Assembly: GCA_016218975.1 (NCBI GenBank)
Contig: JACRCO010000053.1
Span: forward strand, 15,523-79,522
Source of the DNA: Deltaproteobacteria bacterium
Lineage (GTDB): Bacteria > Desulfobacterota > Deferrimicrobia > Deferrimicrobiales > Deferrimicrobiaceae
Length of the DNA stretch: 64,000 nt
Direction: 5' to 3'
The translations under genes were made by a program, and so were the position numbers. Below are positions 16,530 to 53,210 of the stretch, in pieces. Each line of letters begins with the position of its first letter. Positions within the stretch are counted from its first letter, which is position 1. Under the pieces are notes generated by a model. It was not told the DNA's origin. It did not search any database and was given only the letters and a program-made list of their open reading frames with translations.

Positions 16530-17966
16530 CTACTTCTCCCCCATGACCGCCGCCTGGTAAGGGTCTTCGCCGACGTCGATCTCCGCCGCCGTCCCCTTCC
16601 CGACAAGCTGCAAAATCCTGAGGCGGCCGCTCTCAGGGAGTACGGAAAGGAGCCTGTTCCCGTCCCCGTCGATCGTCATGTACGACACTTCGCCTGCCCC
16701 CTGCAGGAAATCGACGGGAAGGAAGGAAAACGGATCGAAGACGTCTATTTCGCCGGTGAACCGTTTCGCAAGGTACACGAGGTCCGTGCGCTGGTCGACT
16801 TTAAGGGCGGCTCCGCCGGCGCCTACGTTGATCCTTCGCACGGTAGACAAGGTAAGCGGATCCACGACGGTCAAAAAGGGGGAATCCCGGTGGAGCACGT
16901 AGAGACGGCTTCCTGCCCTGTTGAACTGTCCCCTCACCGGCCCCGACTCGGTGGCGACCGTCGCCGCGACCGCTTCCGCTGCGATGTCGATGACCGATAT
17001 GCTGTTGGCAATCGCACTGAAGACATACGCCTTTCTTCCGTTGCGGTCGATCAGGATGGACTGCGGCCCCGCTCCGACCTGCAATCTCTTCCTCTCTATC
17101 AAGGACGCGCTATCGATAATGCTCACCGTGTTGGAGCCGTTGTTCGCGGAGAGCAGCGTCTTTCCGTCGGGGGTCAGCGCCAGCTCCTGCGGGTTGTCCC
17201 CCGCGGTCAGCCGCTGCCGGTCGATGACGGCTGCCTCGAGCAGGTCGACGGCTTCGACCGCGTCCTCCCCCTGGAGCGCGACATATGCCTTTCGGGAAGC
17301 CGGATCGACCACGATCCCCGCCGGAGATGCGCCGGTCGGTATGACACCTATTACCTGGCCGGTGTTCTTGTCGAACATCGTTACGGCGTTCTCCCGGCGG
17401 CCGGTAACAAGACCGATTGTCCCTATAGGGATTTTCCCGGGGACCGCCCCGGTAAACGAAGGAGCGAAACGGAACCCCTCCCGGACGGACTCCGCGTAAA
17501 GAAAACGCAATGCAAGCACCGTCGCTTTCTTCCCGGCCACGGCGAAGGGCATCGGGACCCGGGGTGAATCCTCAACCGGTTTGAGCGCAGTTTCTCCTTC
17601 CTCCCCCATGAGAGTCGCGCTCTTTAGCTGTAGAGTGAACCCCTCGTACTGTCCGGGAGGCATATCCCCCGATGCGAGGAGCCTCTCCCTTTTCATTTCC
17701 CTGCCGCTTAGATCTTTCACGTGGAGAGTGAGAGGAACCGTTCCTCCTCCCTGGCGCACGGCGGAAATCCCTTCCAGTCGAAAGGAGAGCCTGCCGGCGT
17801 CCTGGGGAAAGGTCTGGAGATATATGTACAGCGCCCCAGAATCGCCCAGTGGCGGTTTCACCAGTGACGGTCTGGGCTGGCAGGAGGAAAAGACCAGGGA
17901 AAGGGCGACCAGGGCCGCCGGGAGAGCCGCGAATCCATTCCGCCGCCCGGATCCGTTCTCCGTCAT
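16530..17966 (-). CDS. YVTN-family beta-propeller repeat lipoprotein
   Basis: Signal plus Cys (LVFSSCQ). Repeated ~40-aa blades (KAYVALQGEDAVEAVDL, GKTLLSANNGSNTVSIID, RKAYVFSAIANSISVIDI, SRLYVLHRDSPFLTVVD). Confidence 0.75.
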   Translation of the reverse strand: MTENGSGRRNGFAALPAALVALSLVFSSCQPRPSLVKPPLGDSGALYIYLQTFPQDAGRLSFRLEGISAVRQGGGTVPLTLHVKDLSGREMKRERLLASGDMPPGQYEGFTLQLKSATLMGEEGETALKPVEDSPRVPMPFAVAGKKATVLALRFLYAESVREGFRFAPSFTGAVPGKIPIGTIGLVTGRRENAVTMFDKNTGQVIGVIPTGASPAGIVVDPASRKAYVALQGEDAVEAVDLLEAAVIDRQRLTAGDNPQELALTPDGKTLLSANNGSNTVSIIDSASLIERKRLQVGAGPQSILIDRNGRKAYVFSAIANSISVIDIAAEAVAATVATESGPVRGQFNRAGSRLYVLHRDSPFLTVVDPLTLSTVRRINVGAGGAALKVDQRTDLVYLAKRFTGEIDVFDPFSFLPVDFLQGAGEVSYMTIDGDGNRLLSVLPESGRLRILQLVGKGTAAEIDVGEDPYQAAVMGEK

Positions 17967-18035
17967 GATCGTCTTCCCTTTCCTCGTACGGGTAATTCGA
18001 ATGCCGATGCGATGCTCCAGGCCATTCTATCGAAT

Positions 18036-18077
18036 CAAGAAAAAGGGAAGGGGGCCTTTTTGCATGCTGGCCCCCTT
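18036..18077 (-). terminator. Rho-independent terminator after the OmcS-family gene
   Basis: Minus-sense GGGGGCC-agcaugcaaaaa-GGCCCCC hairpin followed by UUCCCUUUUUCUUG. Confidence 0.65.
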
Positions 18078-18126
18078 CCCCGGTTTACTTCAGCCGGACA
18101 AGACGATTCCGGCTACACGATCGACA

Positions 18127-19395
18127 TCAGTCCTTCGCGTGGCACTTGTTGCAGAACACACGCTGATACGTCGCAAACTGTGTTACCGGCCTGTCATAGT
18201 ATGCCGTCTTCCACTCGGCCATCGTCCGGCCGCGGTGCTGGAGCGGTGCACGGGAACTGGTCATGGCGGGGTTGTCGCTTCCCAGGTAATTCGAAGCGAC
18301 TGTCATGAATTCATAGCCGTTGTCGTAGCGAAGCATTTCCGCCACGCCGGAGGCATGCGCCCTGTGGCAGGACAGGCACATGACCTGGTCGGTGCTTCCC
18401 GGACCCGCTTTGAGGGCGGAGGAGCCGTTGTTTCCGGCAAGAGCCGCAAGGGCCGTGTAATCGCCGCTGTTCGTCGCGAACGGAGCAAGGGACGAGAACG
18501 CGGTCGCCGAGGTTCCGGTCAGGTCGCCGGATTTTACATAGGAGTTGTAGTTGGCTGCAATGGTGCTGCCGAGCGATTCATCGACCGGGTGCACGTAGTT
18601 GCCGCTGGAATGCATGGCGCCGTGGCAGGTCGCGCACCACTGCCCCCAGGTTACGTGCCCGCTGGCCGTGGCGACACCGTATGCTACGCGGACCTGGTTG
18701 TCGGCCTCGGTCTGGTTGTAGGACGACGGGGCCTTGGCGGCGGGAACGCCGTTGAAGGTTATCCCGTCTTTCGTGTATCCCGCGCCGGCCAGGAGCCTGT
18801 ACACGCCGACCGCCTCGGTCGCCGTAGGCTCGTTGCTGGTGCCGTTATAGGAACCGGAAGCCTTTATGGGTGCTCCGGTCTTCGCGATCGTGCCGCTCTG
18901 GAGTCTCCTGTACTGGCCGTGAGGGTCATGGCAGGAATTGCAGGCGAGCTGCGCGGAGGGGAATGTCCCGCCCGGGGCCGCGGCATTGATCGGATCCACT
19001 ACGTATCCGAAGTCGCCCGCGATGATGTTGTGGCCGTGGATCGCGCCATCCTCGGTATTGGTAGTACCCTGATACGTATAGGTGTAGGTCTTCCTCAGCC
19101 AGCCGAAGTCGCCGCCGGGAGTCCGGTTCACGGGCGACACGCCGTCGCCCATGGCGGAGGCGGTGGTGCTGATATGGTAGCTCGACAGCGTGGGCCCGTC
19201 GTGGCAGGTAAGACACGTGGAGCTCTGGTCCCCTCCGACAAGCAGGAAGGACCCGCCAGCCTTGGGGCTGTGCATGCTGTGGCAGCCTTCGCACTCGGCG
19301 ACGCCGCCCGAATGGAACGCGTAAGCCGTGGTGCCCATTCCGACCGCAAAAAGCGCGGCCGATAGAACGATAAGTGTGATCTTTGCCGCTTTCAT
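18127..19395 (-). CDS. omcS: OmcS-family hexaheme c-type cytochrome (nanowire-type)
   Basis: The mature N-terminus AFHSGGVAECEGCHSMHS matches my recollection of G. sulfurreducens OmcS (FHSGGVAECEGCHTMH). Conserved TPGGDFGW, GHNI, CNSCHDPHGQYRR, CLSCHRAHASG, YQRVFCNKCHAKD. Six CxxCH motifs. RBS GGAGGAGAA. Confidence 0.85.
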   Translation of the reverse strand: MKAAKITLIVLSAALFAVGMGTTAYAFHSGGVAECEGCHSMHSPKAGGSFLLVGGDQSSTCLTCHDGPTLSSYHISTTASAMGDGVSPVNRTPGGDFGWLRKTYTYTYQGTTNTEDGAIHGHNIIAGDFGYVVDPINAAAPGGTFPSAQLACNSCHDPHGQYRRLQSGTIAKTGAPIKASGSYNGTSNEPTATEAVGVYRLLAGAGYTKDGITFNGVPAAKAPSSYNQTEADNQVRVAYGVATASGHVTWGQWCATCHGAMHSSGNYVHPVDESLGSTIAANYNSYVKSGDLTGTSATAFSSLAPFATNSGDYTALAALAGNNGSSALKAGPGSTDQVMCLSCHRAHASGVAEMLRYDNGYEFMTVASNYLGSDNPAMTSSRAPLQHRGRTMAEWKTAYYDRPVTQFATYQRVFCNKCHAKD

Positions 19396-19417
19396 TTCTC
19401 CTCCTTCAGTTCTCCGG

Positions 19418-19500
19418 CAGCCCGGCCGTCCTTGCCTAACGCAAGCACCCGTTGGCTTTGTGCCCCCGCCTTGCGACAGGTTTACCTTTTTCGGAGGAGT
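19418..19500 (-). promoter_or_regulatory. GEMM-I (c-di-GMP/cGAMP class) riboswitch candidate in the omcS-like leader
   Basis: Minus-sense GGUAAACC-UGUC[GCAA]GGCGGG-GGCACAAAGCC aligns with the GEMM-I P1 (GNRA tetraloop) and the conserved GGGACGCAAAGCC region. A P2 hairpin GCUUGC-GUUAG-GCAAG follows. The RBS follows directly. Confidence 0.65.
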
Positions 19501-19599
19501 TTTCAGGGTTCATTGCGACTACCGACCCGACATTGCGTAAATCCAGGTTGCCGTTCCCTCCACGATCTTGCCGGCAGCACCTCCTTTCGATAGATGGAA

Positions 19600-20589
19600 T
19601 CATTGCCGTCCCCCTTCCGTTCCGTAGGAAGACAGAGAAAAAACTGAAACCCCCCGGTTTCTCAACTGCGTCACGTACAGCTTTCCCGAATTGCCCACGG
19701 CCACTTCGTTCGGCCGAATCAGGTTCCAGGGTTTCTCTCCCCGGTATCCGAACTCCTGGACGAACCTGAATTCCCTGTCGAACACCATCACGACGCTGCG
19801 AAGCCGCTCGACCACCAGGTAATTGCCTTCGTCGTCGACCGCTATGCCGCTTATGACTCCGAACATTCCGGGAGCGGAACCGGACTTGCCGAAAGAGACG
19901 ATCAGCTTCCCTTCCGGCGACACTACGTACGCCTTGAAATGCACGGCGACCGTGAACAACATGTTCCCCGAACGATCCACGCTGAAACCGAAGATTTCGG
20001 TGGTCAGCCTGTCCTTCTCGGGAACATCGACGATCCGGCCGAAGTCATAACCTTTTTGGAATTTGCCGTTTCGATCGGTGACTATCGCCTGCATCCTGCT
20101 CGTGCTCACCAGGAGCAATTCCCCGCCGCGCATAAACATGCGGTTCGGGCAGAAACCATAAAAATCGCCCGGAAGACCGCCGATCCTGACCGTACCTTTC
20201 AGATCTCCGCGGTAATTGCACTTCGAAATCCAGTAATCGGGACCGTCTGCGGGGTGGCTGAAATCGAAGGAAAGGAGAAGCAGGTCACCCTTTTCATCGA
20301 CGGCGATATCGTAAATCGTGCCGAGCGCCCGATTATCGCCGAACCAGAACACTTCCATGCCGGTTTCGTTGAAAACCTTTACGATTCCGCGGTCAAGGAC
20401 GTATACCTCATCCCTTGCCCGGTCCACGTGAAGCCTTACATCGCTATAAGGAATCTTTCCCGAAAAATTAGAAAGGTTGTAAAGGTACGCGGACTTTACG
20501 TTCGTTGCGAACGCCGGGAAGGAACAAACCAGCAGAAGAAAGAAAGCCGGCAGAATCCTGATCGCTTGTTTTTTGTTGTAACTCCTCAT
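19600..20589 (-). CDS. NHL-repeat protein, secreted
   Basis: Signal peptide MRSYNKKQAIRILPAFFLLLVCSFPAFA. NHL-like repeats (GNYLVVERLRSVVMVFD, GKLYVTQLRNRGVSVF). Confidence 0.8.
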   Translation of the reverse strand: MRSYNKKQAIRILPAFFLLLVCSFPAFATNVKSAYLYNLSNFSGKIPYSDVRLHVDRARDEVYVLDRGIVKVFNETGMEVFWFGDNRALGTIYDIAVDEKGDLLLLSFDFSHPADGPDYWISKCNYRGDLKGTVRIGGLPGDFYGFCPNRMFMRGGELLLVSTSRMQAIVTDRNGKFQKGYDFGRIVDVPEKDRLTTEIFGFSVDRSGNMLFTVAVHFKAYVVSPEGKLIVSFGKSGSAPGMFGVISGIAVDDEGNYLVVERLRSVVMVFDREFRFVQEFGYRGEKPWNLIRPNEVAVGNSGKLYVTQLRNRGVSVFSLSSYGTEGGRQ

Positions 20590-20817
20590 GGCGAATCGTT
20601 ATCAGCAAGCCATATGCCAATCCAAATATAGGCATATTGGCCTTATATAACGACATGTTATGAGTTGCAGATTTCCGAAGGGACCGTTTTACGGGGAAAT
20701 AACGAGTGCAGCTTGGGGTTTTCACCGATGCCGGCTGATTTCAACAAACTGTCATATTTTTGACGCTTTGATATAAATTCCCACTATCGACCTTCCGAAA
20801 TATCCACGGGAGGCGCC

Positions 20818-22086
20818 ATGAAAACAATTTCGGACACCCCCTTATCGGCGGCATTCGTCATGACTGCACTTCTGGTTGCCTTCCCCATTCATCGAGCGGC
20901 AGCGTTCCACGCAGGAGGCGTGGGTGAGTGCTCAGGATGCCACTCCTCCCACAGCGCGGGGGCAAACAATCCCTTCCTTCTCGTTTCGGGCGACCCGAGT
21001 TCCACATGCCTCATGTGCCACATGCAGGCAGGAGAAACAGCCCCGAATGCGCATCACGTGGCAACCGACGAGTCGGACATGCCCTCAGGATCCCCTCCCG
21101 TACAGTTGACCCCCGGCGGAGATTTCGGATGGCTTAAGAAAAATTACAAATGGAATGCGGCCGACGGAGGGCCGGGCGGACAGAGCGCCGGCGAGCGGCA
21201 CGGGCATAACATCGTGGCAGCCGTTTACGGATTCGCGGCGGACACCACGCTGACGGCCGCCCCGGGGGGCGCCTACCCCGCAGCCGGTCTGTCCTGCACA
21301 AGCTGCCATGACCCCCACGGAAGATATCGCCGCCTGGCGGACGGAACCATACAATCCAAGGGATCGCCGGTAGTCGATTCTGGGTCGTACAAAACCAGCC
21401 CGGATCCCACGGAGACGACTGCGGTCGGCGTTTACAGGATGCTCGGCGGCAAGGGATACTCAAGGCCCGGGGCAAGCGAAACGTTCAACTTCGATCCTCC
21501 CGCGGCTGTCGCCCCGCCGGATTACAACCGGTCCGAAAGCGGTTCCGACACGCGGGTCGCCTACGGCGGCGGCATGTCGGAATGGTGCACGAATTGCCAC
21601 GGAGCCTACACCGGGAACCGCAACGCGCCCGGCCACCCGGCTGGAAGCCTCGTCAAGATGACGCCTCGCGCCGTCTCGAATTACAACGCATACGTGTCCT
21701 CCGGAAACGTCACCGGAACTTCTTCGACCGCCTACACGTCCCTCGTGCCGTTCGAAATGGGCACTTCCGATTACGCTCTCCTGAAAAAAGCGGCATCCAC
21801 GGACGGTTCGATGAAAGCGGGGCCGGATACCAACTCCAACGTGATGTGCGTCTCCTGCCACCGGGCGCACGCCTCCGCATGGGACCAGGCGGCCCGCTGG
21901 AACATGAAATCCGAATTCATCCTTTACAACGGAGACTATCCGGGCGCGGACAGGACCGATCTGCCCTTACGCATGTCACAGGGTCGCACGAAGACGGAAA
22001 CCAGGCGCGCTTACCATGAAAGACCGCCGATCGCTTTCGCGAGCTACCAGCGGACACTCTGCAACAAGTGCCACACCATGGATTGA
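20818..22086 (+). CDS. OmcS-family hexaheme c-type cytochrome, paralog
   Basis: AAFHAGGVGECSGCHSSHS, LTPGGDFGWLKK, GHNIVA, CTSCHDPHGRYRR, CVSCHRAHAS, YQRTLCNKCHTMD. RBS GGGAGG. Six CxxCH motifs. Confidence 0.85.
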   Translation: MKTISDTPLSAAFVMTALLVAFPIHRAAAFHAGGVGECSGCHSSHSAGANNPFLLVSGDPSSTCLMCHMQAGETAPNAHHVATDESDMPSGSPPVQLTPGGDFGWLKKNYKWNAADGGPGGQSAGERHGHNIVAAVYGFAADTTLTAAPGGAYPAAGLSCTSCHDPHGRYRRLADGTIQSKGSPVVDSGSYKTSPDPTETTAVGVYRMLGGKGYSRPGASETFNFDPPAAVAPPDYNRSESGSDTRVAYGGGMSEWCTNCHGAYTGNRNAPGHPAGSLVKMTPRAVSNYNAYVSSGNVTGTSSTAYTSLVPFEMGTSDYALLKKAASTDGSMKAGPDTNSNVMCVSCHRAHASAWDQAARWNMKSEFILYNGDYPGADRTDLPLRMSQGRTKTETRRAYHERPPIAFASYQRTLCNKCHTMD

Positions 22087-22990: not shown

Positions 22991-24375
<1,385 letters not shown>

Positions 24376-24379
<4 letters not shown>

Positions 24380-25830
24380 GTGGCCGTCTCCGCAGCAACG
24401 GCGGCGACGGGAAGCAGGATCCGGAACACCGTGCCGCCTCCCGGGTTGTCTGCGGCAGAAATTTCTCCGCCGTGCTGTTCGATCAGCTGTTTGGAAATGG
24501 CCAGTCCCAATCCAGTGCCCTTGGGCTTTGTCGTGAAGAACGGCTGGAAGATCTTTTCGATGTTTTCCCTCGGGATCCCCTTGCCGGTGTCGGCGAATTC
24601 GATCCGAAGGAAATCCGTTTCCTTTTCATGGGAGGTGCGCACCGAGAGCGTTCCCCCGTTGGGCATTGCATCCACGGCGTTCAGGACGAGGTTCAGGAAG
24701 ATCTGCTGGAGCTGCATGGGATCCGCCATCGTTTCCGGGAGCGGCTGAAGGTCCTTCTCTATACGGACGGCGTTCGGGCGGTCCGGCGCAGACGGGCGGC
24801 TTTTCATGTAAAAGGCAAGGACGGTGTTGACGAGGCTGTTTACGTTCAGATCCGCAAGCTGCGGCTTGGCCGGCTTGGCGAAGTTAAGGAAGTTCCTCAT
24901 CAGGGATTCCACGCGCACGACCTCCTGCGCGACTTTGCGGATGACTTCCCGGTCTTCCGCAGACATGCTCGTTTCCTCGGACAGAACGTGCATGGCCACC
25001 TTGATGCCCGCGAGCGGGTTCTTGATCTCGTGGGCAAGGCCCGCCGCCAGCTCGCCGACGATCACCATCTGCTCGGTCCGCTGCATCTTCAACATCTGTT
25101 CCTTGAGCGATGCCGCCATCTCGTTGAACGATGCAGCCAGCTCTCCGAATTCGTCCTTCAGGGCCTCGACCCGGTGATCCAGGTTTCCGGCTTTCAGCTT
25201 TCTCGTCGAATCGAGCAGCACGTTGACCGGGTTCGTCAGCCCGGACAGGAATATGTAGCCGAGGAACGCCGACATCAACGGGCCGATCCCGACGAGGAAA
25301 TACAGCATATACTTCGTCCGCGCGATGCGGATCATCGCCCTTTGCGTATTCTCCGCAAGCTTCGAGCTCGTGATCGCGATCACGTCCCGGACCTTGCCGA
25401 TCAGGTCCTCTCCGATCTGGAAGGCCGCATCCTCCTCCGCCAGGATCCTTGCGGTGTTCGCGCGAAGCGTCAGCACGCGGCTCAATGCGTCCTTGTAGGT
25501 CTCCGTCTGCTTTTTCAGGTCCTGGAGCCTCTCGGTCGCCTGCTGGTTGTGATGGCAGTCGAAACAGGTATCTACGATCCTTCCCATGCTGACGACGTTC
25601 TGGACGACGGTGTCGAAAGTACGCTTATGCCGCGTGTCCTTGAGGGTCAGGTCCGTTTGGACCCTTTTTACCTGCAGCAGGTAGTGCTCCCTCAGGATTT
25701 CCACCTGGTGGAGCGTTATCAGCCTGTCGAGCTCAGTCGTCGCGGACTGGATGATGTAGATGATGTAGATGCCGCAGAGGAGAAAAAACAGCGTATAGAT
25801 GCCAAGGCCGATGATTATCTTCTTCTTCAT
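24376..25830 (-). CDS. Sensor histidine kinase (TM, periplasmic domain with one CxxCH, TM, HAMP, HisKA, HATPase)
   Basis: TM1 IIIGLGIYTLFFLLCGIYII. Periplasmic loop contains VDTCFDCHHN (about 25552..25566). TM2, HAMP, H-box LAAGLAHEIKNPL, G-boxes DTGKGI / GTGLGLAIS. Overlaps the regulator gene by 4 nt. Confidence 0.85.
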
Positions 25831-25839
25831 AAATGAACG

Positions 25840-26748
25840 TCAGTCGTTGATGTAGTCGTAGGTGGCCAGGTTGAGATGGATTTCACTCGCGTAGTTCACG
25901 ACGGGGGTGTAATCCGCGTTCGTGGTTTCGATGAACCATCGCGCCCCGAACTGCTCCAGGACCGCCTTCCCCTCCGGATCTTCGTGCATTTTCAGAAGCG
26001 CATCCTTCATGCTGCTTCTCAACGCCTTATCGATATCCTTCCGGAGAGCCAGGCCGTTTTCGGGGACGTCGGGAGACTTCGCGAGAATCGTCAGCTCCTT
26101 CAGGATACGCGGGTCCGCCTTCGCGACCCGGTAGTACACCGTATTTTTCGCCGCTCCGACATCGGCTTTCCTGTTCAACACGTCGTATACGGCATCCTCG
26201 TGCGTCCCCGAGAAATACGCTTCCCCAAGGTATTTCTTCCAGTCGTCGATTCCCGCCTCGTGAAAATACCGCTTCGGGAACAGGTAGCCTGCGGTCGTGG
26301 CCTTGTCCACTAAGGCGAACCGCTTTCCCTTCATCTCCCGTCTGGACGCGATGCCGCTGTCCTTCCGCACGAAGATCAACCCGTGGTAGCTCGAGGTGTT
26401 GTCGAGCGCAACCGGCCTGGCCAGCACTTCCACCCCGATTTTGGCGTGGGCGAGCGCATATGTGAAACTCCCGAAGAATGCGCCGTCCAATCCCGCCATC
26501 TTGAAGTTGTCTATGATGTTCCCGTACCTGGGGAGGATCTTAAGCGTGATCCTCGTCCCGGTTTTCGACGAGAGATAGACGGCAAGGGGCTCGTATCGCT
26601 CGATCTGCTTGAAAATGTTCTGTTCCGGAATAAGGCCGATCAGTATGGTCTTTCGCTTGTCCGCGGAAGGCTTGAAAGGCGTATTTTCCTGGCTGCACCC
26701 GGCGAGAAGAAAAAGGAAGAGGCATGCGGCGAGCAGATGTCGGGCCAT
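25840..26748 (-). CDS. PhnD/SsuA-like periplasmic substrate-binding lipoprotein (phosphonate-ABC SBP family)
   Basis: MARHLLAACLFLFLLAGCSQ lipoprotein signal. LIGLIPEQNIFK...LPRYGNIIDNF...GAFFGSFTYA...VDKATTAGYL typical of the PhnD family. Confidence 0.8.
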   Translation of the reverse strand: MARHLLAACLFLFLLAGCSQENTPFKPSADKRKTILIGLIPEQNIFKQIERYEPLAVYLSSKTGTRITLKILPRYGNIIDNFKMAGLDGAFFGSFTYALAHAKIGVEVLARPVALDNTSSYHGLIFVRKDSGIASRREMKGKRFALVDKATTAGYLFPKRYFHEAGIDDWKKYLGEAYFSGTHEDAVYDVLNRKADVGAAKNTVYYRVAKADPRILKELTILAKSPDVPENGLALRKDIDKALRSSMKDALLKMHEDPEGKAVLEQFGARWFIETTNADYTPVVNYASEIHLNLATYDYIND

Positions 26749-26797
26749 CTTTTAGAATACTACCATATATTTCGATTACTTCGCCATAAATCAAGCG

Positions 26798-27706
26798 TCA
26801 GTCATTTATGTAGTCGTAGGTGGCGAGGCTCAGGCCGGCTTCTTTTGCATACCTTGCCACGGACTCGTAATCCTTGTTCGTGGTCTCGACGAATCTCCGC
26901 GCACCGAACTGCTCCAGCACCGACTTTCCCCTGGCGTCGAGGTGCATGTTCAGGAGCGCATCCTTCAAACCGGTTCGGAAGGAATCTTCGATATCCTTCC
27001 GGAGCGCCAGGGAGTTTTCCGGCATGTCGGGGGATGTTTCCAGGATCGACAACTCTCTTTTTATCCGCGGGTCGGATACCGCGACCCGGTTGAACACCGT
27101 GTTCTTCGACGCGCCTATGTCGGCCTTCCTGTTGAGCACATCGAAGATCGCGTCCTCGTGCGTTCCCGTAAAATAACCCTCCTTGAGATATTTTCTCCAA
27201 TCGATTCCCTTCTCATGGAAATATTTCAGGGGGAAAAGATAACCGGCGGTCGTCGCCTTGTCCACGAAAGCGAACCGCTTCCCTTTCATGCCGTCGATCG
27301 TCCTGATCCCGCTGTCCTTCCTTACGAAAATCATCCCGTGGTAGGTGGATGTGTTGTCGTTGTATTCCGGACGCGCAAGGACTTCCACCCCAAGCTTCGC
27401 GTGGGCAAGCGCGTACGTGAAACTCCCGAAAAATGCGCCGTCCAGCCCCGACATCCTGAAATTGTCGATGATGTTCCCGTACCTCGGGAGAATTTTAAGA
27501 GATATATTCATCCCGGTTTTCGCGGAGAGATACGCGGCCACGGGTTCGTATCTCTCCAACTGCTTGAATATGTTCTGCTCCGGTATCAGCCCGATAAGGA
27601 CGGTCTTCCGGTTGACCGCCGGGGATCTTGAAGGAGGATTGTCCTGGCTGCACCCTGCCGCAATAACAACTCCCAGGATAACGATAAAAGCCGATCTCCG
27701 GAACAT
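26798..27706 (-). CDS. PhnD/SsuA-like periplasmic substrate-binding lipoprotein, tandem paralog
   Basis: Same motifs as the 25840..26748 gene (LIGLIPEQNIFKQLERYEP...). Visibly similar at the DNA level. Confidence 0.8.
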   Translation of the reverse strand: MFRRSAFIVILGVVIAAGCSQDNPPSRSPAVNRKTVLIGLIPEQNIFKQLERYEPVAAYLSAKTGMNISLKILPRYGNIIDNFRMSGLDGAFFGSFTYALAHAKLGVEVLARPEYNDNTSTYHGMIFVRKDSGIRTIDGMKGKRFAFVDKATTAGYLFPLKYFHEKGIDWRKYLKEGYFTGTHEDAIFDVLNRKADIGASKNTVFNRVAVSDPRIKRELSILETSPDMPENSLALRKDIEDSFRTGLKDALLNMHLDARGKSVLEQFGARRFVETTNKDYESVARYAKEAGLSLATYDYIND

Positions 27707-27747: not shown

Positions 27748-30700
27748 CTATAGTTCATGCTGGCCTTTCTTGTGGCAGCGCTTGCAGAGATCGGCCCGCT
27801 TGTTCGCATTCGTCATTTTTTCGAAATCGGATCCGTGCGGGTTATGGCAACTGATGCAATCGATGTACTTACCCGTTTTCGCATCCACGTATTTCCCTTT
27901 TCCCATCCCGTGGAGGTGAGTGTCGGGAACCTTCGGATGGCAACCAAGGCACAGTTTGTTCATGTCCGCCGAGAGCAGCTTGGGCTGTTCCCCCGTATGC
28001 GCCACGTGGCAGCTTTCGCAACCCTTCTCCACGGGTGGGTGCTTATAGGTAACCTTCGCCATTTCCGCGCCGTGGCAATCGAAGCACAGGCCCGGAGAAG
28101 AACGGTAAAGCAGGCCCTTCGCAGGCGCGGAGTGCGGCGAATGGCAGCTGCCGCATTTTTTGTCCGAATCGATCGGGAAGTGGCGTGTTTTCCCCGCAAA
28201 TCCCTTTTTCTTCACATCCTGGTGGCAGTTGAAGCAGAGGTCCGGGCCTCGGGCCGAAAGCTCCTTTTTCCCCTCTCCCGCATGGCATGATACGCACTTC
28301 CCCTCGGAATACGGCTGATGTCCGAAGTTGTGCGCCAGCGCCTTTGCGCCCTTTGCGCCGGCATGCGGGTCGTGGCAGGTGAGGCAATCGGCCCTCGAAA
28401 TATCCATTCCCCTGTGTTTCGGGGCCGCTCCGGCGGCATCGTGGCAGGTCCAGCAGATGTCCGGAACCGGCTTCGAGAGCAGCCGCCTCTGGTTCGTCCC
28501 GTGCGGATCGTGGCAGGAACCGCAGGCGCCTTCGGCGACCGGGTCGTGGAGTTTTTTCCCCGCGAGCCCCTGCCTGAACGATTCGTGGCACCCGTAGCAG
28601 AACTCCTTCTCCGGTTTCGGCAGAAGGAACCTGTTCCCCGCCGAGTGGGCGGCGTGGCACGCCTTGCACGATCCTTCCTCGAGGGGCTTGTGCCTGTATT
28701 TCCTTTGCGGAATGTCGGCCTTGTCGGAATGGCATGCGTTGCAGAATTTCGCACCCTGCGCGACGAGCAGTTTATCCCCCGAAGATGCATGCGGGTCGTG
28801 GCATGATACGCACTCTCCCTTCTTCACCGGTCCGTGCACCACAGGGTCCTTCTGCGTCTTCTCCATCCCGGAATGACAGGTGAAGCAGAGCTTCTCCTTC
28901 GGCGCGGCCAGCACGATTTCGCCGTTCGCCCCCGCCTTTCCGTGGCATGAATCGCATTTGCGGGTTTTGAACGGCTCGTGGGCCTTTGCCTTCATCAGCT
29001 TTCCGGTTACCGAAGAGTGCGGGTCGTGGCACGAGGCGCAGTTGGATTTCCTGTCCGCCATGTCCCGGTGGACCTTCCGGAATTCATCTTTCGTGAGGCT
29101 GTGGCAGGAGGCGCACAGGTCCCCCACCGGTTTCACGAGGCTGCCGGGATTGCTGGAGCCGTGTGGGGAGTGGCAGGTGTCGCACTTCTCCTTCTCCACC
29201 GGAAGGTGGACCTTCCCCTCCCTGAACCGCTTCTTCTCCTCCTTGTGGCAGGAGTAGCAGAGCTCGGCGCCGGCCAGTGAAAGAAGCTTCGGCCGGTCCG
29301 CGCCGTGCGGATCGTGGCAGCCGGCGCAGTCTCCCCGGGCCGCCGGCGTGTGCACCGCCCTTCGCTTGAAGATCTCCTTCAGATCGTCATGGCACGAAAG
29401 ACACAGCGATTTTTCATCCTTCGCCAGCATTGCCTTCGTGTCGCTGCCGTGAGGACCGTGGCAGGAAACGCACCCTTCCGTGGCGGGGGAGTGGGGGAAC
29501 TTCTTCGCCACGGCCTTCTTCATGTCCCCGTGGCACGTGTAGCACAGGCCGGCGCCTTCCTGCTTCGTTAGCCCCTTGCCCTCCGAGCGGTGCGGAGTGT
29601 GACAAACCGAACACCCCTGTTCGACAAGCGGTTTGTGCTTGCGGCGATATCCCCCGGCTTCCTTCAGGTCGCCGTGGCAGCCGGTGCACAGGACGGCTTC
29701 GGCCGCGACGAGCAGCTTCCCGTTCAGCGTCGAGTGGGCGCCGTGGCACGTCAGGCAGCCGTTGTCGTCTAAAGCCGCGTGGCGCGTCCCGGTCCGGGCG
29801 AGCTCCTTCGCGACCTTTTCGTGGCAGGAAAGGCAGAGTCCTTCCCCTGCGGACCTGACGAGTTTTTTGTTGTCCGATCCGTGCGATTCGTGGCAGGCGT
29901 CGCACCGGCTTTTCGCCATAGGAGCGTGTACCTGCGGCTTTTTGAAATCGTCGTCGAGGCGCAGGTGGCATTCGAGGCATATTCCCTTCAAATCGCCTTT
30001 CAGGAGGGGACGCGAAGCGCTTTTGTGCGGCGAGTGGCATTTCAGGCAGTCCCCGTCCCTGGCCGGGAAGTGCGAAACCGGTTTCTTCGTCTTTTTCGAG
30101 ATGTCGTCGTGGCAGTTGGCGCACAGCTCCTTGACCGGCTGGACCAGGGAGCTCTTCACCTTCCCTTCCGTTCCGACCTCGTGGCAGTCGGCGCAGTCCC
30201 CGCGCGCATACGGCTCGTGGACTTCCGGCAACACCCCGCCCTTTTTCGCCGTTCCGTGGGGGCTGTGGCAGGCGGTGCAGGACTGGTTCTTCACCTCCGC
30301 TATGTCGTGAGGCTTTTTCCCCGCCGTTTTTTCCGCCGCGTGGCAGGAGAAGCATAGGTCATTTCCAGCCTTCAGCAGCAGCCTCGGTTCGTCGGTCGAG
30401 TGAGGCGGGTGACAAAGCGAACACTCCCCGTTCCTGAACGGCGAATGGATCCAGACGCCGGACGAAAGCCGCTTCATCTCCTTGTGGCATTCGAAGCAGA
30501 CGGAGGACTTGTCGGCGGTTTCCCTGACGAGCCCTTTGAGGTTCGAAGCATGGGGGTCGTGGCAGGCGGTGCACTCGCCTTTTTTCGCCGGAGAGTGCAT
30601 CGTTTTCTTCCCGAACTTGTCCTTCAGGTCCTTGTGGCACGAATAGCAGAGCTGCGCGCCCTTTTCCTTGAGGATCAGCTTGTTCGAGAAGCCGTGGCGC

Positions 30701-30897
30701 CGGTGGCACGCCTCGCAGTCCTCCTTCGCCACGGGAGCGTGCACGAATTTCCTTTGATGCGCCGCCTTCGCTTTCGGGTGGCAGTCGTAGCAGCCCTTTT
30801 TCGCCGCCAGGATATCGCCCGCGCCACCGGCGAAAATGCAAAGGATTGCGACAGTAGATAAAGCGCCCAGGACCGCTATCCGCCGAACCGTTTTCAT
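27748..30897 (-). CDS. Giant multiheme cytochrome c, about 42 CxxCH motifs (1,049 aa)
   Basis: Signal peptide MKTVRRIAVLGALSTVAILCIFAGGAG. I counted 42 CxxCH motifs, regularly spaced (c7-polymer type), alternating CxxCHxxH and CxxCH. Confidence 0.9.
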   Translation of the reverse strand: MKTVRRIAVLGALSTVAILCIFAGGAGDILAAKKGCYDCHPKAKAAHQRKFVHAPVAKEDCEACHRRHGFSNKLILKEKGAQLCYSCHKDLKDKFGKKTMHSPAKKGECTACHDPHASNLKGLVRETADKSSVCFECHKEMKRLSSGVWIHSPFRNGECSLCHPPHSTDEPRLLLKAGNDLCFSCHAAEKTAGKKPHDIAEVKNQSCTACHSPHGTAKKGGVLPEVHEPYARGDCADCHEVGTEGKVKSSLVQPVKELCANCHDDISKKTKKPVSHFPARDGDCLKCHSPHKSASRPLLKGDLKGICLECHLRLDDDFKKPQVHAPMAKSRCDACHESHGSDNKKLVRSAGEGLCLSCHEKVAKELARTGTRHAALDDNGCLTCHGAHSTLNGKLLVAAEAVLCTGCHGDLKEAGGYRRKHKPLVEQGCSVCHTPHRSEGKGLTKQEGAGLCYTCHGDMKKAVAKKFPHSPATEGCVSCHGPHGSDTKAMLAKDEKSLCLSCHDDLKEIFKRRAVHTPAARGDCAGCHDPHGADRPKLLSLAGAELCYSCHKEEKKRFREGKVHLPVEKEKCDTCHSPHGSSNPGSLVKPVGDLCASCHSLTKDEFRKVHRDMADRKSNCASCHDPHSSVTGKLMKAKAHEPFKTRKCDSCHGKAGANGEIVLAAPKEKLCFTCHSGMEKTQKDPVVHGPVKKGECVSCHDPHASSGDKLLVAQGAKFCNACHSDKADIPQRKYRHKPLEEGSCKACHAAHSAGNRFLLPKPEKEFCYGCHESFRQGLAGKKLHDPVAEGACGSCHDPHGTNQRRLLSKPVPDICWTCHDAAGAAPKHRGMDISRADCLTCHDPHAGAKGAKALAHNFGHQPYSEGKCVSCHAGEGKKELSARGPDLCFNCHQDVKKKGFAGKTRHFPIDSDKKCGSCHSPHSAPAKGLLYRSSPGLCFDCHGAEMAKVTYKHPPVEKGCESCHVAHTGEQPKLLSADMNKLCLGCHPKVPDTHLHGMGKGKYVDAKTGKYIDCISCHNPHGSDFEKMTNANKRADLCKRCHKKGQHEL

Positions 30898-40711: not shown

Positions 40712-42052
40712 TCAAAATCCCTTGACGTAAGCTTTTGTCCCGCCCTTCTGATGGCACTTTCCGCACCCGAATGCAGGGTTGTCCCCGATCGAGACCGCGC
40801 CCGTGAAATCCTGCTGCCCGGCGGGGAGAAACGAGTGGGAGTTCGTGTCCCACCGGGTCATGTTTTCGTAGTTCGAAGCGTGCGCCTTGTGGCATGTGAG
40901 GCACATGATACGGTCCGTAGCCGCAAGCGTTGCCGGATCGGAGGCGGAGGCGACGTTCGCCCTGACGGAGAAGTCGGCATCCCCCTTAACCAAAGGGTAT
41001 TTCCAGTCATAACCAACGGGGTTCGGGTTGTTCCCCTGTGAATTCGTAACGGCCGCATTGTAGGTATCGATGCCGTACTTGCTTCCGGTCGATCTATCCA
41101 TAGTCACGTTGGTCGGGTGCCGTATCCATGCATCGCCCGACCGGGTCTTGTCGTTGTCGGCGTTCCTGTTCTCGCCGTTTCCTCCGTGGAAGTCGCCATG
41201 ACAGACGGCGCAGAACGAGGAGAAGCCGCCCCGGTAGACGTTCTTGTTCGTGTCCGACTCGGCCGTGTTCGGGTACAGTTTCGCGCCTTCGAGCGGGTTA
41301 CCGTCCTTGCGAGTATTCAAATACGTGGTCTCGTTCGGGCCTCCCCGTATGTCGCCGCGCGAGTTGGAAAGGATCGGCTCGTATCCCGGCGCGGTCGTCC
41401 CTTCGTTACCCCCATAGCTCTCGACGCCTTTCGCCGCCGTCTCGCTCCCCGTGTGAACGATCCCGTTCACCTTGCGGCGCAACTGTCTCCATGCCGCCAC
41501 GTTTTCACCGAACCGGTTGTGGGGATCGTGGCACGAGGCGCAGTCCCAGTCGTTCGTCGAAAATCCTCCTCCGGGAGACGCCGTCAACACCGGGTCCGAA
41601 GGCATGACCATCGACTGAACCCCCCTGCTCTTCCCCGGGTTGTGTCCCTTCTTCGGATCGTTGAAGCTCAAATGGAAATCCCCGCCCGGCAACGCGTAAT
41701 TCGACGGGATGTTCCCGGCGCTGCTCATCACCGCCGGGGCCTTGAATGCGGTGCTCGCGGGATAGAGATGGCATTGCAGGCATATGTCGGTGACCGTTGG
41801 CTGCTTGAGAAGTCTCGCGTACGGCCCGGGATTCCCCGTGGTCCCGGCGATGATCGGAGCGCCGTCCTCGCTGTTGTGTATCGTATGGCAGTCGTAGCAA
41901 ACCAGCCCGTCGTACGAGTGGTAAAGCCGCGTGTTCACGCTCCCGGTTATATAGTCGATAAAAGCGTATGCCGGAGGCGCGGCGCCGAAGCAAAGCGCGG
42001 CCATCGAACAAGCGAGGACGAAGCCGGCGGCGGCTCTGGTTCTTTTATTCAT
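40712..42052 (-). CDS. Hexaheme c-type cytochrome, divergent OmcS-related family B
   Basis: ORF trimmed to ATG 42052 (MNKRTRAAAGFVLACSMAALCFGAAPPAYA). YHSYDGLVCYDCHTIHNS, LPGGDF...KGHNPGK, CASCHDPHNRFG, CAVCHGDFHG, CLTCHKAHASNYENMTRWDTN (compare OmcS CLSCHRAHASGFDSMTRFN), C-terminal GCGKCHQKGG. Six CxxCH motifs. Confidence 0.8.
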   Translation of the reverse strand: MNKRTRAAAGFVLACSMAALCFGAAPPAYAFIDYITGSVNTRLYHSYDGLVCYDCHTIHNSEDGAPIIAGTTGNPGPYARLLKQPTVTDICLQCHLYPASTAFKAPAVMSSAGNIPSNYALPGGDFHLSFNDPKKGHNPGKSRGVQSMVMPSDPVLTASPGGGFSTNDWDCASCHDPHNRFGENVAAWRQLRRKVNGIVHTGSETAAKGVESYGGNEGTTAPGYEPILSNSRGDIRGGPNETTYLNTRKDGNPLEGAKLYPNTAESDTNKNVYRGGFSSFCAVCHGDFHGGNGENRNADNDKTRSGDAWIRHPTNVTMDRSTGSKYGIDTYNAAVTNSQGNNPNPVGYDWKYPLVKGDADFSVRANVASASDPATLAATDRIMCLTCHKAHASNYENMTRWDTNSHSFLPAGQQDFTGAVSIGDNPAFGCGKCHQKGGTKAYVKGF

Positions 42053-42138
42053 GATCACCCCCCGGAGGTGGTGAAGCCCTGCGGGCGTGGAGTCACGCCC
42101 GCAGGGCGGCATGAAACATTCTCAAATGGACAGGCGAT

Positions 42139-43536: not shown

Positions 43537-43556
43537 TGCATCCTCCGAAGTTTTCT

Positions 43557-43640
43557 CTGGCGGCCCGGCCGTCCTTCCATCGAAGGATCCGTGGGCTTTG
43601 CGTCCCCCGATTACTCGAGGTTTGCCTTTTTCAGAGGATT
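43557..43640 (-). promoter_or_regulatory. GEMM-I (c-di-GMP/cGAMP class) riboswitch candidate in the leader of the family-B hexaheme gene
   Basis: Minus-sense GGCAAACC-UCGA[GUAA]UCGGGG-GACGCAAAGCC aligns base-for-base with the Vc2-type GEMM-I P1 and core. P2 hairpin UCCUUC-GAUG-GAAGGA covaries with the 19418..19500 copy. The P1 overlaps the stop codon of the upstream NHL gene. Confidence 0.7.
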
Positions 43641-50456: not shown

Positions 50457-50614
50457 CGTCAGAGTCTCCGCTCGATTCTTCCGAAGGAACCCGTTTGCCG
50501 GGATTCCCGATGGCAACTTTCATTTCGGAAGAAGGAACGGATACCCTTAGCAGCATAACGTCAAGTTTTTGACATATTCGGTAATAAATATTCAATGCAG
50601 GTCCTTGATAGCCG

Positions 50615-53172: not shown

Positions 53173-53210
53173 CTGCCGTTCCTCCGTGGAATGTATATTC
53201 GTCATGTTCG

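What the first reader, a model, noticed from the sequence alone, without database searches (positions are those of the whole stretch)
19418..19500. GEMM-I cyclic-dinucleotide riboswitch candidate in the OmcS-family leader
The minus-sense leader reads GGUAAACC-UGUC[GCAA]GGCGGG-GGCACAAAGCC, then a P2 hairpin and the RBS. This matches the GEMM-I (c-di-GMP-I/cGAMP) architecture. P1 carries a GNRA tetraloop and is followed by the conserved ACGCAAAGCC-like segment. A rho-independent terminator at 18036..18077 closes the gene, so this omcS-like gene appears to be a riboswitch-gated monocistronic unit.
Basis: partly seen in the sequence, partly recalled or inferred. Interest (0 to 1): 0.75.

Follow-up and report, generated by a model that had tools for sequence, protein, structure and literature searches.

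The report
c-di-GMP riboswitch before OmcS-like cytochrome gene
The leader of this OmcS-type "nanowire" cytochrome gene carries a genuine GEMM-I cyclic-dinucleotide riboswitch, most likely sensing c-di-GMP and unmasking the ribosome-binding site when bound; it is a counterpart of the known Geobacter omcS riboswitch, so it is a solid but ordinary new example.

Summary
Rfam places a GEMM-I-clan aptamer at 19412-19495(-) (60.8 bits, E 6.8e-12), 17 nt upstream of a 422-aa hexaheme OmcS homologue (PDB 6EF8, E 4e-108). The best-scoring model is the "c-di-GMP-I-GGC" variant, but the nucleotide that separates that consensus from the ordinary one (position 47) is A here. The ligand triplet is the canonical G20/A47/C92, so I predict c-di-GMP, not cGAMP.

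A model built here finds the same aptamer directly upstream of 35 of 80 OmcS homologues from Thermodesulfobacteriota, Nitrospirota, Acidobacteriota and Schekmanbacteria MAGs. It also finds the one upstream of Geobacter omcS, which has A20. Covariation supports the fold: 95% of cells paired, 11 compensatory pairs.

The expression platform is conserved. The 5' strand of the outer closing helix lies inside an anti-SD (CUCCUCC). It can pair either with CGGAG, closing the aptamer, or with the SD GGAGGAG. Without ligand the SD is predicted fully paired; with the closing helix enforced it opens. I infer a translational ON switch.

The terminator at 18037-18081 is real. "Monocistronic" is unproven: the gene sits in a conserved NHL-OmcS-propeller cassette and no promoter was found in the leader. 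GEMM-OmcS linkage was published in 2007, so this is a new member of a known kind.

The parts
19412..19495 (-). GEMM-I (c-di-GMP-I clan) aptamer as delimited by Rfam
   Evidence: RF03167 at 60.8 bits, E 6.8e-12, full model. The model R1 built here gives 89.7 bits over 19412-19499. The fold is supported by covariation over 33 homologues.
19493..19499 (-). Anti-SD CUCCUCC. Its last four bases are also the first four of the 5' strand of the outer closing helix (CUCCG, 19492-19496).
   Evidence: It pairs with the SD in the unconstrained MFE. A 7-bp anti-SD:SD helix is kept in at least 31 of 33 homologous leaders, with an A-U to C-G exchange at its end.
19486..19486 (-). Nucleotide equivalent to Vc2 G20, which recognises the first base of the ligand. 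It is G here.
   Evidence: Position read from the Rfam alignment. G20 goes with c-di-GMP and A20 with cGAMP (PMC6140456). In the model alignment only L004, L040, L072 and Geobacter L081 have A.
19465..19480 (-). First hairpin (P1 of Weinberg 2007), 6 bp, capped by the GCAA tetraloop at 19471-19474
   Evidence: Three of its six pairs show compensatory changes.
19459..19461 (-). A45-C46, which pair with G21-U22 at 19484-19485, followed by A47 (19459), the base that intercalates between the ligand bases
   Evidence: alignment. The 22:45 pair is U-A in 22, C-G in 8 and U-G in 3 sequences. A47 is invariant in the 33-sequence alignment.
19419..19457 (-). Second hairpin (P2) with an AA bulge and one G-G mismatch
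   Evidence: the mismatch is flagged v. Six of 12 pairs show compensatory changes.
19412..19417 (-). C92 (19417) followed by the 3' strand of the closing helix, CGGAG (19412-19416), an SD look-alike that competes with the real SD for the anti-SD
   Evidence: (C92 invariant).
19398..19404 (-). Shine-Dalgarno GGAGGAG; the start codon AUG is at 19393-19395
   Evidence: Predicted P(unpaired) is 0.00-0.01 in the free ensemble and 0.28-0.90 with the closing helix enforced.
18127..19395 (-). Regulated gene: a 422-aa hexaheme c-type cytochrome of the OmcS family
   Evidence: PDB 6EF8/6NEF OmcS, E 3.8e-108, over residues 27-422. Six CxxCH motifs. Pfam Paired_CXXCH_1.
18037..18081 (-). Intrinsic terminator after the OmcS-like gene
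   Evidence: 13-bp stem plus U-tract; the fold of 18028-18130 has z = -4.73 and 0 of 200 shuffles fold as well.
19578..19587 (-). Conserved SD-like AAAGGAGGUG in the NHL-OmcS spacer. Function unknown and not shown to belong to the switch.
   Evidence: RGGRGGUG lies 65-149 nt upstream of the aptamer in 24 of 34 leaders, against 0.03 expected per window. It also occurs in 11 of 27 leaders that lack the riboswitch.

Best explanation
This is a GEMM-I (c-di-GMP-I class) riboswitch in the leader of an OmcS-family cytochrome gene. It most likely binds c-di-GMP and works as a translational ON switch. The sequence CUCCUCC (19493-19499) has two mutually exclusive partners. Without ligand it pairs with the Shine-Dalgarno GGAGGAG (19398-19404), looping out the aptamer and blocking initiation. 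With ligand bound at the three-helix junction, the closing helix CUCCG/CGGAG forms. CGGAG acts as a decoy SD that holds the anti-SD, and the real SD is released. Shown here: the aptamer, its covariation, the conserved alternative pairing and the predicted energetics. Inferred: the ligand identity (from G20/A47/C92) and the direction of regulation.
For: Aptamer: the Rfam hit and its alignment.

Homologues: model R1 finds 38 strong matches (E at or below 1.2e-12), 35 of them directly upstream of 80 OmcS-homologue genes. These include L020, L036, L057, L064 and Geobacter L081, none of which were in the seed alignment.

Covariation: 95.3% of cells paired, 11 pairs with double changes, 0 of 500 shuffles as high, and slid controls at 35-49% paired.

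Ligand: G20, A47 and C92 are read. Wild-type Vc2 (G20) binds c-di-GMP at picomolar Kd and cGAMP only at about 10 uM. G20A becomes bispecific, and natural cGAMP aptamers carry A at this site (PMC6140456).

Platform: the unconstrained MFE pairs anti-SD with SD (-45.4 kcal/mol). Enforcing the closing helix reproduces the Rfam fold (-34.3). SD accessibility rises from 0.00 to 0.3-0.9.

The second riboswitch at 43555-43639 uses different letters for the same scheme: AUCCUCUG, CAGAG and CGGAGGAU.

In 33 leaders the 7-bp anti-SD:SD core is paired in at least 31. Its outer pair is A-U in 23, C-G in 7 and U-A in 1.

ON logic is supported independently. Homologue L020 instead has an intrinsic terminator whose stem uses the aptamer's 3' strands. 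In G. sulfurreducens, loss of the cGAMP synthase lowers omcST expression 2-3 fold (PMC6456294).
Against: No ligand binding or reporter data exist for this RNA. The best Rfam model is nominally the GGC variant, whose ligand I could not establish. The predicted gap between the two states (about 11 kcal/mol) is large and ignores tertiary and ligand energies, so switching may be kinetic rather than thermodynamic. Much of the anti-SD:SD helix is invariant (CCUCC/GGAGG), and only one or two pairs covary. The sequences are related, so the shuffle control overstates significance. The Geobacter omcST riboswitch is reported to respond to both cGAMP and c-di-GMP, so specificity in this subfamily may not follow position 20 alone. 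P2 carries a G-G mismatch.
Confidence: 0.7

Rival explanations
1. The aptamer senses 3',3'-cGAMP, or both cGAMP and c-di-GMP, like the Geobacter GEMM-Ib riboswitches. The platform would be the same.
For: The orthologous position in Geobacter, upstream of omcS and with the same NHL-riboswitch-omcS synteny and the same platform, holds an A20 aptamer. That riboswitch is reported to be sensitive to both ligands (PMC6456294). A20 also occurs in three other OmcS leaders: L004, L040 and L072.
Against: Both riboswitches in this window have G at position 20. G20 Vc2 discriminates against cGAMP by orders of magnitude. L004 (A20) and L001/L009 (G20) are otherwise nearly identical, which suggests position 20 is the switched determinant.
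Confidence: 0.17
2. It is a true member of the c-di-GMP-I-GGC variant class (RF03167) with altered, unknown ligand specificity.
For: RF03167 is the top-scoring family, at 60.8 bits against a gathering score of 59. It is also the top family for homologues L001, L002, L018 and L072.
Against: The two Rfam consensus lines differ in the conserved core at position 47: GCGAAgCc in RF03167 and GCAAAgCc in RF01051. This RNA and all 33 homologues have A there. L072, which has A20, also passes RF03167, so the model does not discriminate between subtypes. The margin over the threshold is under 2 bits. In every case an overlapping same-clan match above its own threshold was suppressed.
Confidence: 0.05
3. 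The switch is OFF-type or not a switch. Either the anti-SD:SD helix simply extends the closing helix and coexists with ligand binding, so that ligand stabilises sequestration, or the aptamer is a relic and the SD is constitutively masked.
For: The anti-SD:SD helix encloses the aptamer topologically. The first hairpin and P2 persist in the sequestered fold of the 43.6-kb copy. Degenerate aptamers that keep the anti-SD and SD exist in L011, L015 and L050.
Against: The closing helix and the anti-SD:SD helix share four nucleotides, so they cannot coexist. C92 and the junction need the closing helix. All ligand-contact nucleotides are intact and covariation shows purifying selection. The terminator-type homologue L020 and the Geobacter genetics both indicate ON.
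Confidence: 0.06

Closest known systems
Geobacter omcS/omcT GEMM-I riboswitch. GEMM-OmcS association: Weinberg et al. 2007, PMC1950547. Reported by PMC6456294, citing Kellenberger 2015, to respond to cGAMP and c-di-GMP.
   Same: The gene context matches: sigma-54 response regulator, NHL protein, riboswitch, OmcS. The aptamer fold matches (RF01051 56.8 bits; R1 87.7 bits). The platform matches: UUUCCUCCG ... CCGGAG ... UGGAGGAAAUGAUG, read directly.
   Different: Position 20 is A in Geobacter and G here. The OmcS proteins are clear homologues (E 3.8e-108; about half the aligned residues identical by my reading of the alignment). In Geobacter omcT follows omcS. Here a terminator and a YncE-like propeller gene follow.
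Vibrio cholerae Vc2 c-di-GMP-I riboswitch (RF01051; structures 3IRW and 3MXH as cited in PMC6140456)
   Same: G20/A47/C92 triplet, a 2+6-bp first hairpin with a GNRA loop, the AAA linker, and P2.
   Different: This RNA has a GCAA rather than a GAAA tetraloop. It has no 11-nt receptor and instead an AA bulge at the base of P2, the receptor-less type described in PMC1950547. It has G rather than A at position 43 and a U22-A45 pair. Its platform works by SD sequestration.
GEMM-Ib cGAMP riboswitch Gs1761 (pgcA leader)
   Same: Same scaffold, and the same general biology: an extracellular cytochrome under cyclic-dinucleotide control, ON-type.
   Different: Gs1761 has A at the position-20 equivalent and acts through a transcription terminator (PMC6456294). 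This RNA has G20 and no terminator between aptamer and start codon; only 17 nt separate them.
c-di-GMP-I-GGC (RF03167)
   Same: It gives the best bit score. It shares the flanking closing-helix pairs and a short P2.
   Different: The model consensus has G at position 47, and this RNA has A. I could not read the defining paper. That the name means G20-G47-C92 is my inference from the two consensus lines and from recollection.

Membership tests
c-di-GMP-I / GEMM-I riboswitch (Rfam clan CL00126, RF01051) | A significant covariance-model match | tested here: met
   The clan member RF03167 scores 60.8 bits, E 6.8e-12, over the full model. One further overlapping same-clan match above its own gathering score was suppressed. 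I infer it is RF01051, because 4 of 4 RF03167 hits show the same pattern. The RF01051 score itself was not displayed.
c-di-GMP-I / GEMM-I riboswitch (Rfam clan CL00126, RF01051) | Two-hairpin architecture: 2-bp and 6-bp stems with a 3-nt internal loop and GNRA loop, an AAA linker, and P2, with covariation | tested here: met
   95.3% of cells paired, 11 compensatory pairs, and the AAA linker invariant.
c-di-GMP-I / GEMM-I riboswitch (Rfam clan CL00126, RF01051) | Ligand-contact nucleotides G20, A47 and C92 | tested here: met
   G at 19486, A at 19459, C at 19417. The roles of these positions are from PMC6140456.
c-di-GMP-I / GEMM-I riboswitch (Rfam clan CL00126, RF01051) | Position in a 5' leader on the same strand as a downstream gene, with an expression platform | tested here: met
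   The aptamer ends 17 nt before the AUG. The anti-SD/SD alternative pairing is present.
c-di-GMP-I / GEMM-I riboswitch (Rfam clan CL00126, RF01051) | Selective binding of c-di-GMP and ligand-dependent gene control | not testable with these tools
   Needs in-line probing or ITC and reporter assays.
GEMM-Ib (3',3'-cGAMP riboswitch) | Adenine at the position equivalent to Vc2 G20 | tested here: not met
   G at 19486. The Geobacter omcS leader has A.
c-di-GMP-I-GGC variant (RF03167) | Bit score at or above the family gathering score of 59 | tested here: met
   60.8 bits, a margin under 2 bits.
c-di-GMP-I-GGC variant (RF03167) | G instead of A at position 47. This definition is inferred from the RF03167 and RF01051 consensus lines; the defining paper was not readable. 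| tested here: not met
   The model has G where the sequence has A (19459) in the alignment. A is invariant across the 33 homologues.
OmcS family hexaheme cytochrome (the regulated gene) | Full-length homology to OmcS and six CxxCH motifs | tested here: met
   6EF8, E 3.8e-108, residues 27-422 against 1-407. Six CxxCH. Filament formation was not tested.
Intrinsic (rho-independent) terminator | A G+C-rich hairpin followed directly by a U-tract, downstream of the stop codon | tested here: met
   13-bp stem then UUUUUCUU, starting 46 nt after the stop codon; z = -4.73. Termination activity was not tested.

The most novel reading that the evidence does not exclude
The riboswitch plus its decoy-SD/anti-SD/SD translational platform may travel with the OmcS nanowire-cytochrome cassette (NHL propeller, OmcS, YncE-like propeller) across at least four phylum-level groups of uncultivated bacteria. 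It is mostly in the G20 (c-di-GMP) form. If so, c-di-GMP control of OmcS-type cytochromes would be the widespread, probably ancestral state, and the cGAMP (A20) wiring of Geobacter a derived minority. The conserved 16S-complementary AAGGAGGUGAU element upstream might be a further, undescribed leader component, for example a STAB-SD-like stabiliser or a ribosome standby site.
Probability: 0.35. Interest if true: 0.5.

Novelty: new member of a known kind. Interest (0 to 1): 0.3.

Why it matters
It adds no new mechanism class. GEMM riboswitches upstream of omcS have been known since 2007, and their ligands since 2008 and 2015. Its value is as annotation and as a lead. It predicts that this uncultured deltaproteobacterium turns on an OmcS-like extracellular cytochrome in response to c-di-GMP rather than cGAMP. 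The comparative set assembled here (35 of 80 OmcS loci, natural G20/A20 pairs such as L001 and L004, and SD-sequestering versus terminator platforms) gives a ready panel for testing how ligand specificity and platform type evolve around one gene family.

Tried and rejected
1. RF03167 membership at face value was rejected. Position 47 is A, and the model also accepts an A20 sequence.

2. The terminator-like hairpin at 19646-19661(-), found by the scan, was considered as the end of the upstream transcript. It lies in the conserved C-terminal coding sequence of the NHL gene, so it is probably not a terminator.

3. A sigma-70 promoter was sought at 17800-20000 and none was found. A strict sigma-54 pattern within 200 nt upstream of any of the riboswitches also gave nothing. 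A window-wide sigma-54 search gives only chance-level counts (19 found, 18.8 expected). The one 1-mismatch site next to a gene start is upstream of the NHL ORF.

4. The upstream GGAGGUG was considered as a third pairing partner for the anti-SD. Worked out by hand, it offers no complementarity beyond GGAGG:CCUCC. The motif also occurs in leaders without a riboswitch.

5. Small-ORF readings of the upstream SD-like motif were rejected: there is no conserved start codon at workable spacing (sequences).

6. Weinberg 2017, Kellenberger 2015 and Nelson 2015 could not be retrieved.

7. The source contig could not be located by exact protein look-up.

8. The closest OmcS relative, at 79% identity (L083), was fetched for leader footprinting. 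It has no riboswitch.

Full report
**1. What is in the sequence**

On the minus strand, 19499 to 19393 reads:

CUCCUCCG-AAAAAG-GU-AAA-CCUGUC[GCAA]GGCGGG-GGC-AC-AAA-GCC..(P2)..GGCU-GC-CGGAG-AACUGAA-GGAGGAG-AA-AUG.

A gathering-threshold Rfam scan of the whole window returns two riboswitch hits:
- 19412-19495(-): RF03167 c-di-GMP-I-GGC, 60.8 bits (gathering score 59), E 6.8e-12, full-length.
- 43556-43636(-): RF01051 c-di-GMP-I, 62.2 bits.

One lower-scoring overlapping hit from the same clan was suppressed.

The ORF that starts 17 nt after the aptamer (18127-19395, 422 aa) is a clear OmcS homologue. It matches PDB 6EF8/6NEF with E 3.8e-108 across the whole mature protein, and it has six CxxCH motifs.

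Downstream of the stop codon lies a 13-bp G+C-rich hairpin followed by UUUUUCUU (18037-18081). Its fold has z = -4.7.

**2. Which GEMM-I subtype**

The roles of the ligand-contact nucleotides are documented in PMC6140456:
- G20 reads the first ligand base. It is A in natural cGAMP aptamers.
- C92 forms a Watson-Crick pair with the second ligand base.
- Wild-type Vc2 binds c-di-GMP at picomolar Kd and cGAMP at about 10 uM. The G20A mutant is bispecific.

That A47 intercalates between the two ligand bases is from my own recollection of the Vc2 structure papers.

In the alignment this RNA has G20 (19486), A47 (19459) and C92 (19417), the canonical triplet.

The two Rfam consensus lines differ in the conserved core at position 47: GCGAAgCc in RF03167 and GCAAAgCc in RF01051. 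This RNA has A there. So do all 33 homologues aligned.

RF03167 also wins for L072, which has A20, so it does not discriminate subtypes. It probably scores slightly higher because it models the outer closing helix and a short P2. I therefore do not file the element as a GGC variant. I could not read the paper that defines that class. That GGC means G20-G47-C92 is my inference.

The GCAA tetraloop and the AA bulge at the base of P2 match the receptor-less GEMM type described in 2007 (PMC1950547).

**3. Relatives**

The OmcS-like protein is 100% identical to a protein from a 'Deltaproteobacteria bacterium' MAG, on a contig of 276 kb.

A scan of species-representative genomes with an alignment of homologues returned 80 loci. 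Their record titles name Thermodesulfobacteriota and Desulfobulbaceae, Nitrospirota, Acidobacteriota, Rokubacteria, Methylomirabilota and Schekmanbacteria MAGs.

A pattern search found the aptamer directly upstream of the OmcS-like ORF, on the same strand, in 31 loci. A covariance model built from those sequences raised this to 35 of the 80. The additional hits L020, L036, L057 and L064 were not in the seed alignment.

On the 33-sequence alignment the Rfam-type structure behaves as follows:
- It is paired in 95.3% of cells; partners slid by 1-3 columns give 35-49%.
- Eleven of 25 pairs show double changes, across 58 cells.
- No shuffle out of 500 reaches the observed values.
- The 22:45 pair is U-A in 22 sequences, C-G in 8 and U-G in 3.

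I rebuilt mature G. sulfurreducens OmcS from the alignment and used it to find the Geobacter OmcS protein and then its locus. The Geobacter omcS leader has an RF01051 hit of 56.8 bits.

That locus has the same gene order as here: sigma-54 response regulator, NHL protein, riboswitch, omcS. It has the same platform, but A at position 20 (AAAAGAGUAAACC). A20 also occurs in L004, L040 and L072. All other strong hits have G.

**4. How it most likely works**

Only 17 nt separate the aptamer from the AUG, and they hold no terminator. Control must therefore act at translation initiation or mRNA stability.

The heptamer CUCCUCC (19493-19499) overlaps the 5' strand of the outer closing helix (CUCCG). 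It is complementary both to CGGAG (19412-19416, the 3' strand of that helix) and to the SD GGAGGAG (19398-19404). Four nucleotides are shared, so the two helices exclude each other.

Predicted energetics:
- Unconstrained folding pairs anti-SD with SD (-45.4 kcal/mol).
- Enforcing the closing helix reproduces the Rfam consensus fold unaided (-34.3 kcal/mol).
- The probability that SD bases are unpaired is 0.00-0.01 in the free ensemble. It is 0.28-0.90 with the closing helix enforced.

The second riboswitch in the window builds the same scheme from different letters: AUCCUCUG, CAGAG and CGGAGGAU, with energies of -40.7 against -33.2 kcal/mol.

Across 33 leaders the 7-bp anti-SD:SD core is paired in at least 31. 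Its outer pair is A-U in 23, C-G in 7 and U-A in 1. In the Desulfobulbaceae-type leaders the helix extends into the A-rich joiner, pairing AAA with UUU.

The inferred logic is that ligand stabilises the closing helix, the decoy CGGAG captures the anti-SD, the SD is freed, and translation turns ON. Two independent observations agree with ON:
- Homologue L020 replaces this platform with an intrinsic terminator whose stem uses the aptamer's 3' strands.
- In G. sulfurreducens, deleting the cGAMP synthase lowers omcST expression 2-3 fold (PMC6456294).

Caveats:
- Most of the anti-SD:SD helix is invariant.
- The sequences are related, so the shuffle control overstates significance.
- Nearest-neighbour energies ignore tertiary and ligand contributions.

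**5. Context, and the 'monocistronic' claim**

The window is an extracellular-electron-transfer island. It contains:
- Three copies of a PhnD-like binding protein, HAMP histidine kinase and sigma-54 response regulator set.
- Three NHL-propeller genes, each followed by a multihaem cytochrome gene. Two of these pairs have GEMM-I riboswitches between the genes.
- An MtrB/PioB porin.
- A 1049-aa multihaem cytochrome with 19 matched doubled-CXXCH stretches.

The order NHL, OmcS homologue, YncE-like propeller is kept in nearly all 80 loci, with or without the riboswitch. An association of NHL propellers with OmcS-like cytochromes has been reported (PMC5815863).

No sigma-70-like promoter was found in the leader. 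The best sigma-54-like site, TGGCATATGGCTTGCT at 20604-20619(-), lies just upstream of the NHL ORF. However, matches to that pattern in the window are no more frequent than chance.

The terminator after the OmcS-like gene is real. Whether the transcript starts in the 104-nt spacer or at the NHL gene remains open, so 'monocistronic' is unproven.

**6. Comparison with what is known, and novelty**

GEMM was linked to omcS in G. sulfurreducens when the motif was first described (PMC1950547). The ligands and the G20/A20 rule are established.

This element is therefore a new member of a known kind: the counterpart of the Geobacter omcS riboswitch in an uncultured relative. It carries the c-di-GMP-type nucleotide at position 20.

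Several points went beyond what I found in the papers I could read:
- The module is widespread across phyla.
- The decoy-SD platform is uniform across those loci.
- G20 predominates over A20.

These are incremental.

**7. Verdict**

The ligand is refined to c-di-GMP (probability about 0.75). The mechanism is a translational ON switch by SD sequestration (about 0.75). 'Monocistronic' is not established. Interest is 0.3.

Noticed in passing
window 43555-43639 (-), with genes 42139-43536 (-) and 40712-42112 (-): A second GEMM-I riboswitch (RF01051, 62.2 bits; G20/A47/C92) has the same anti-SD / closing-helix / SD design written in different letters. It lies upstream of two tandem hexaheme cytochromes (465 and 466 aa) that are only 22-28% identical to the OmcS-like proteins. 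It too is preceded by an NHL-propeller gene.
   Followed up: partly
window 19578-19587 (-); also about 86 nt upstream of the 43.6-kb aptamer; L001-L081 leaders: A conserved motif, AAGGAGGUG(A/G)U, is by my recollection of the 16S rRNA 3' end a near-perfect complement to it. It sits in the spacer after the NHL stop codon. It lies 65-149 nt upstream of the aptamer in 24 of 34 riboswitch leaders (0.03 expected) and occurs in 11 of 27 leaders without a riboswitch. No start codon follows at usable spacing, and its function is unknown. A STAB-SD-like or standby-site role is speculation.
   Followed up: partly
L001-L080 (for example L001 1257-2252, 2501-3772, 4045-5394); window 16530-20589 (-): A three-gene cassette, NHL propeller then OmcS homologue then YncE-like beta-propeller, is conserved on one strand in nearly all 80 loci from several phyla, whether or not the riboswitch is present. 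This fits a shared role in cytochrome assembly or anchoring. A partial precedent is PMC5815863.
   Followed up: partly
window 20604-20619 (-): A sigma-54-type promoter-like site, TGGCATATGGCTTGCT (1 mismatch), lies immediately upstream of the NHL ORF 19600-20589 (-). Sigma-54 response regulators are encoded at 22991-24379, 45371-46759 and 54425-55792. Overall counts for the pattern in the window are at chance level.
   Followed up: no
window 24376-27706, 46756-50595, 55793-57796 (-): A set of PhnD-like periplasmic binding protein, HAMP histidine kinase and sigma-54 response regulator recurs next to the cytochrome modules. The two response regulators next to the riboswitch modules are 55% identical.
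   Followed up: no
window 27748-30897 (-) and 50698-53553 (-): A 1049-aa multihaem cytochrome with 19 matched doubled-CXXCH stretches and MtrC/MtrF-like domains, and an MtrB/PioB-type outer-membrane porin. The window is an extracellular-electron-transfer island.
   Followed up: no
L011 2405-2478, L050 2408-2478, and L015 about 2440-2500: Three Acidobacteriota OmcS leaders show a similar pattern. L011 and L050 keep the anti-SD/closing helix, GGCAAACC, the first hairpin and the SD, but the GCAAAGCC/P2 half is replaced; model scores are only 23-24 bits. For L015 only the 3' part was seen, and it resembles L050. These are either decaying riboswitches or a divergent variant.
   Followed up: no
L020 2338-2460: A Nitrospirota OmcS paralogue has the GEMM-I aptamer coupled to an intrinsic terminator (GCUUCGGUGAGCCCGG followed by U7) that overlaps the aptamer's 3' strands. 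It also has a compensated C21-G46 pair.
   Followed up: partly
L083 1300-1615: The closest OmcS relative found (79% identity, GCA_040960625.1) has the same NHL-OmcS-propeller order and the upstream AAGGAGGUGG motif but no riboswitch. Presence of the riboswitch is therefore patchy even among close relatives.
   Followed up: partly
window 19646-19661 (-): A terminator-like hairpin plus T-run, reported by the consensus scan, lies within the conserved C-terminal coding sequence of the NHL gene. The relatives align there. It is probably a coding coincidence rather than a terminator.
   Followed up: yes
window 20818-22086 (+): A second OmcS-family paralogue (422 aa, 47% identical, six CxxCH) is transcribed divergently from the NHL gene. 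No Rfam riboswitch hit lies upstream of it.
   Followed up: partly
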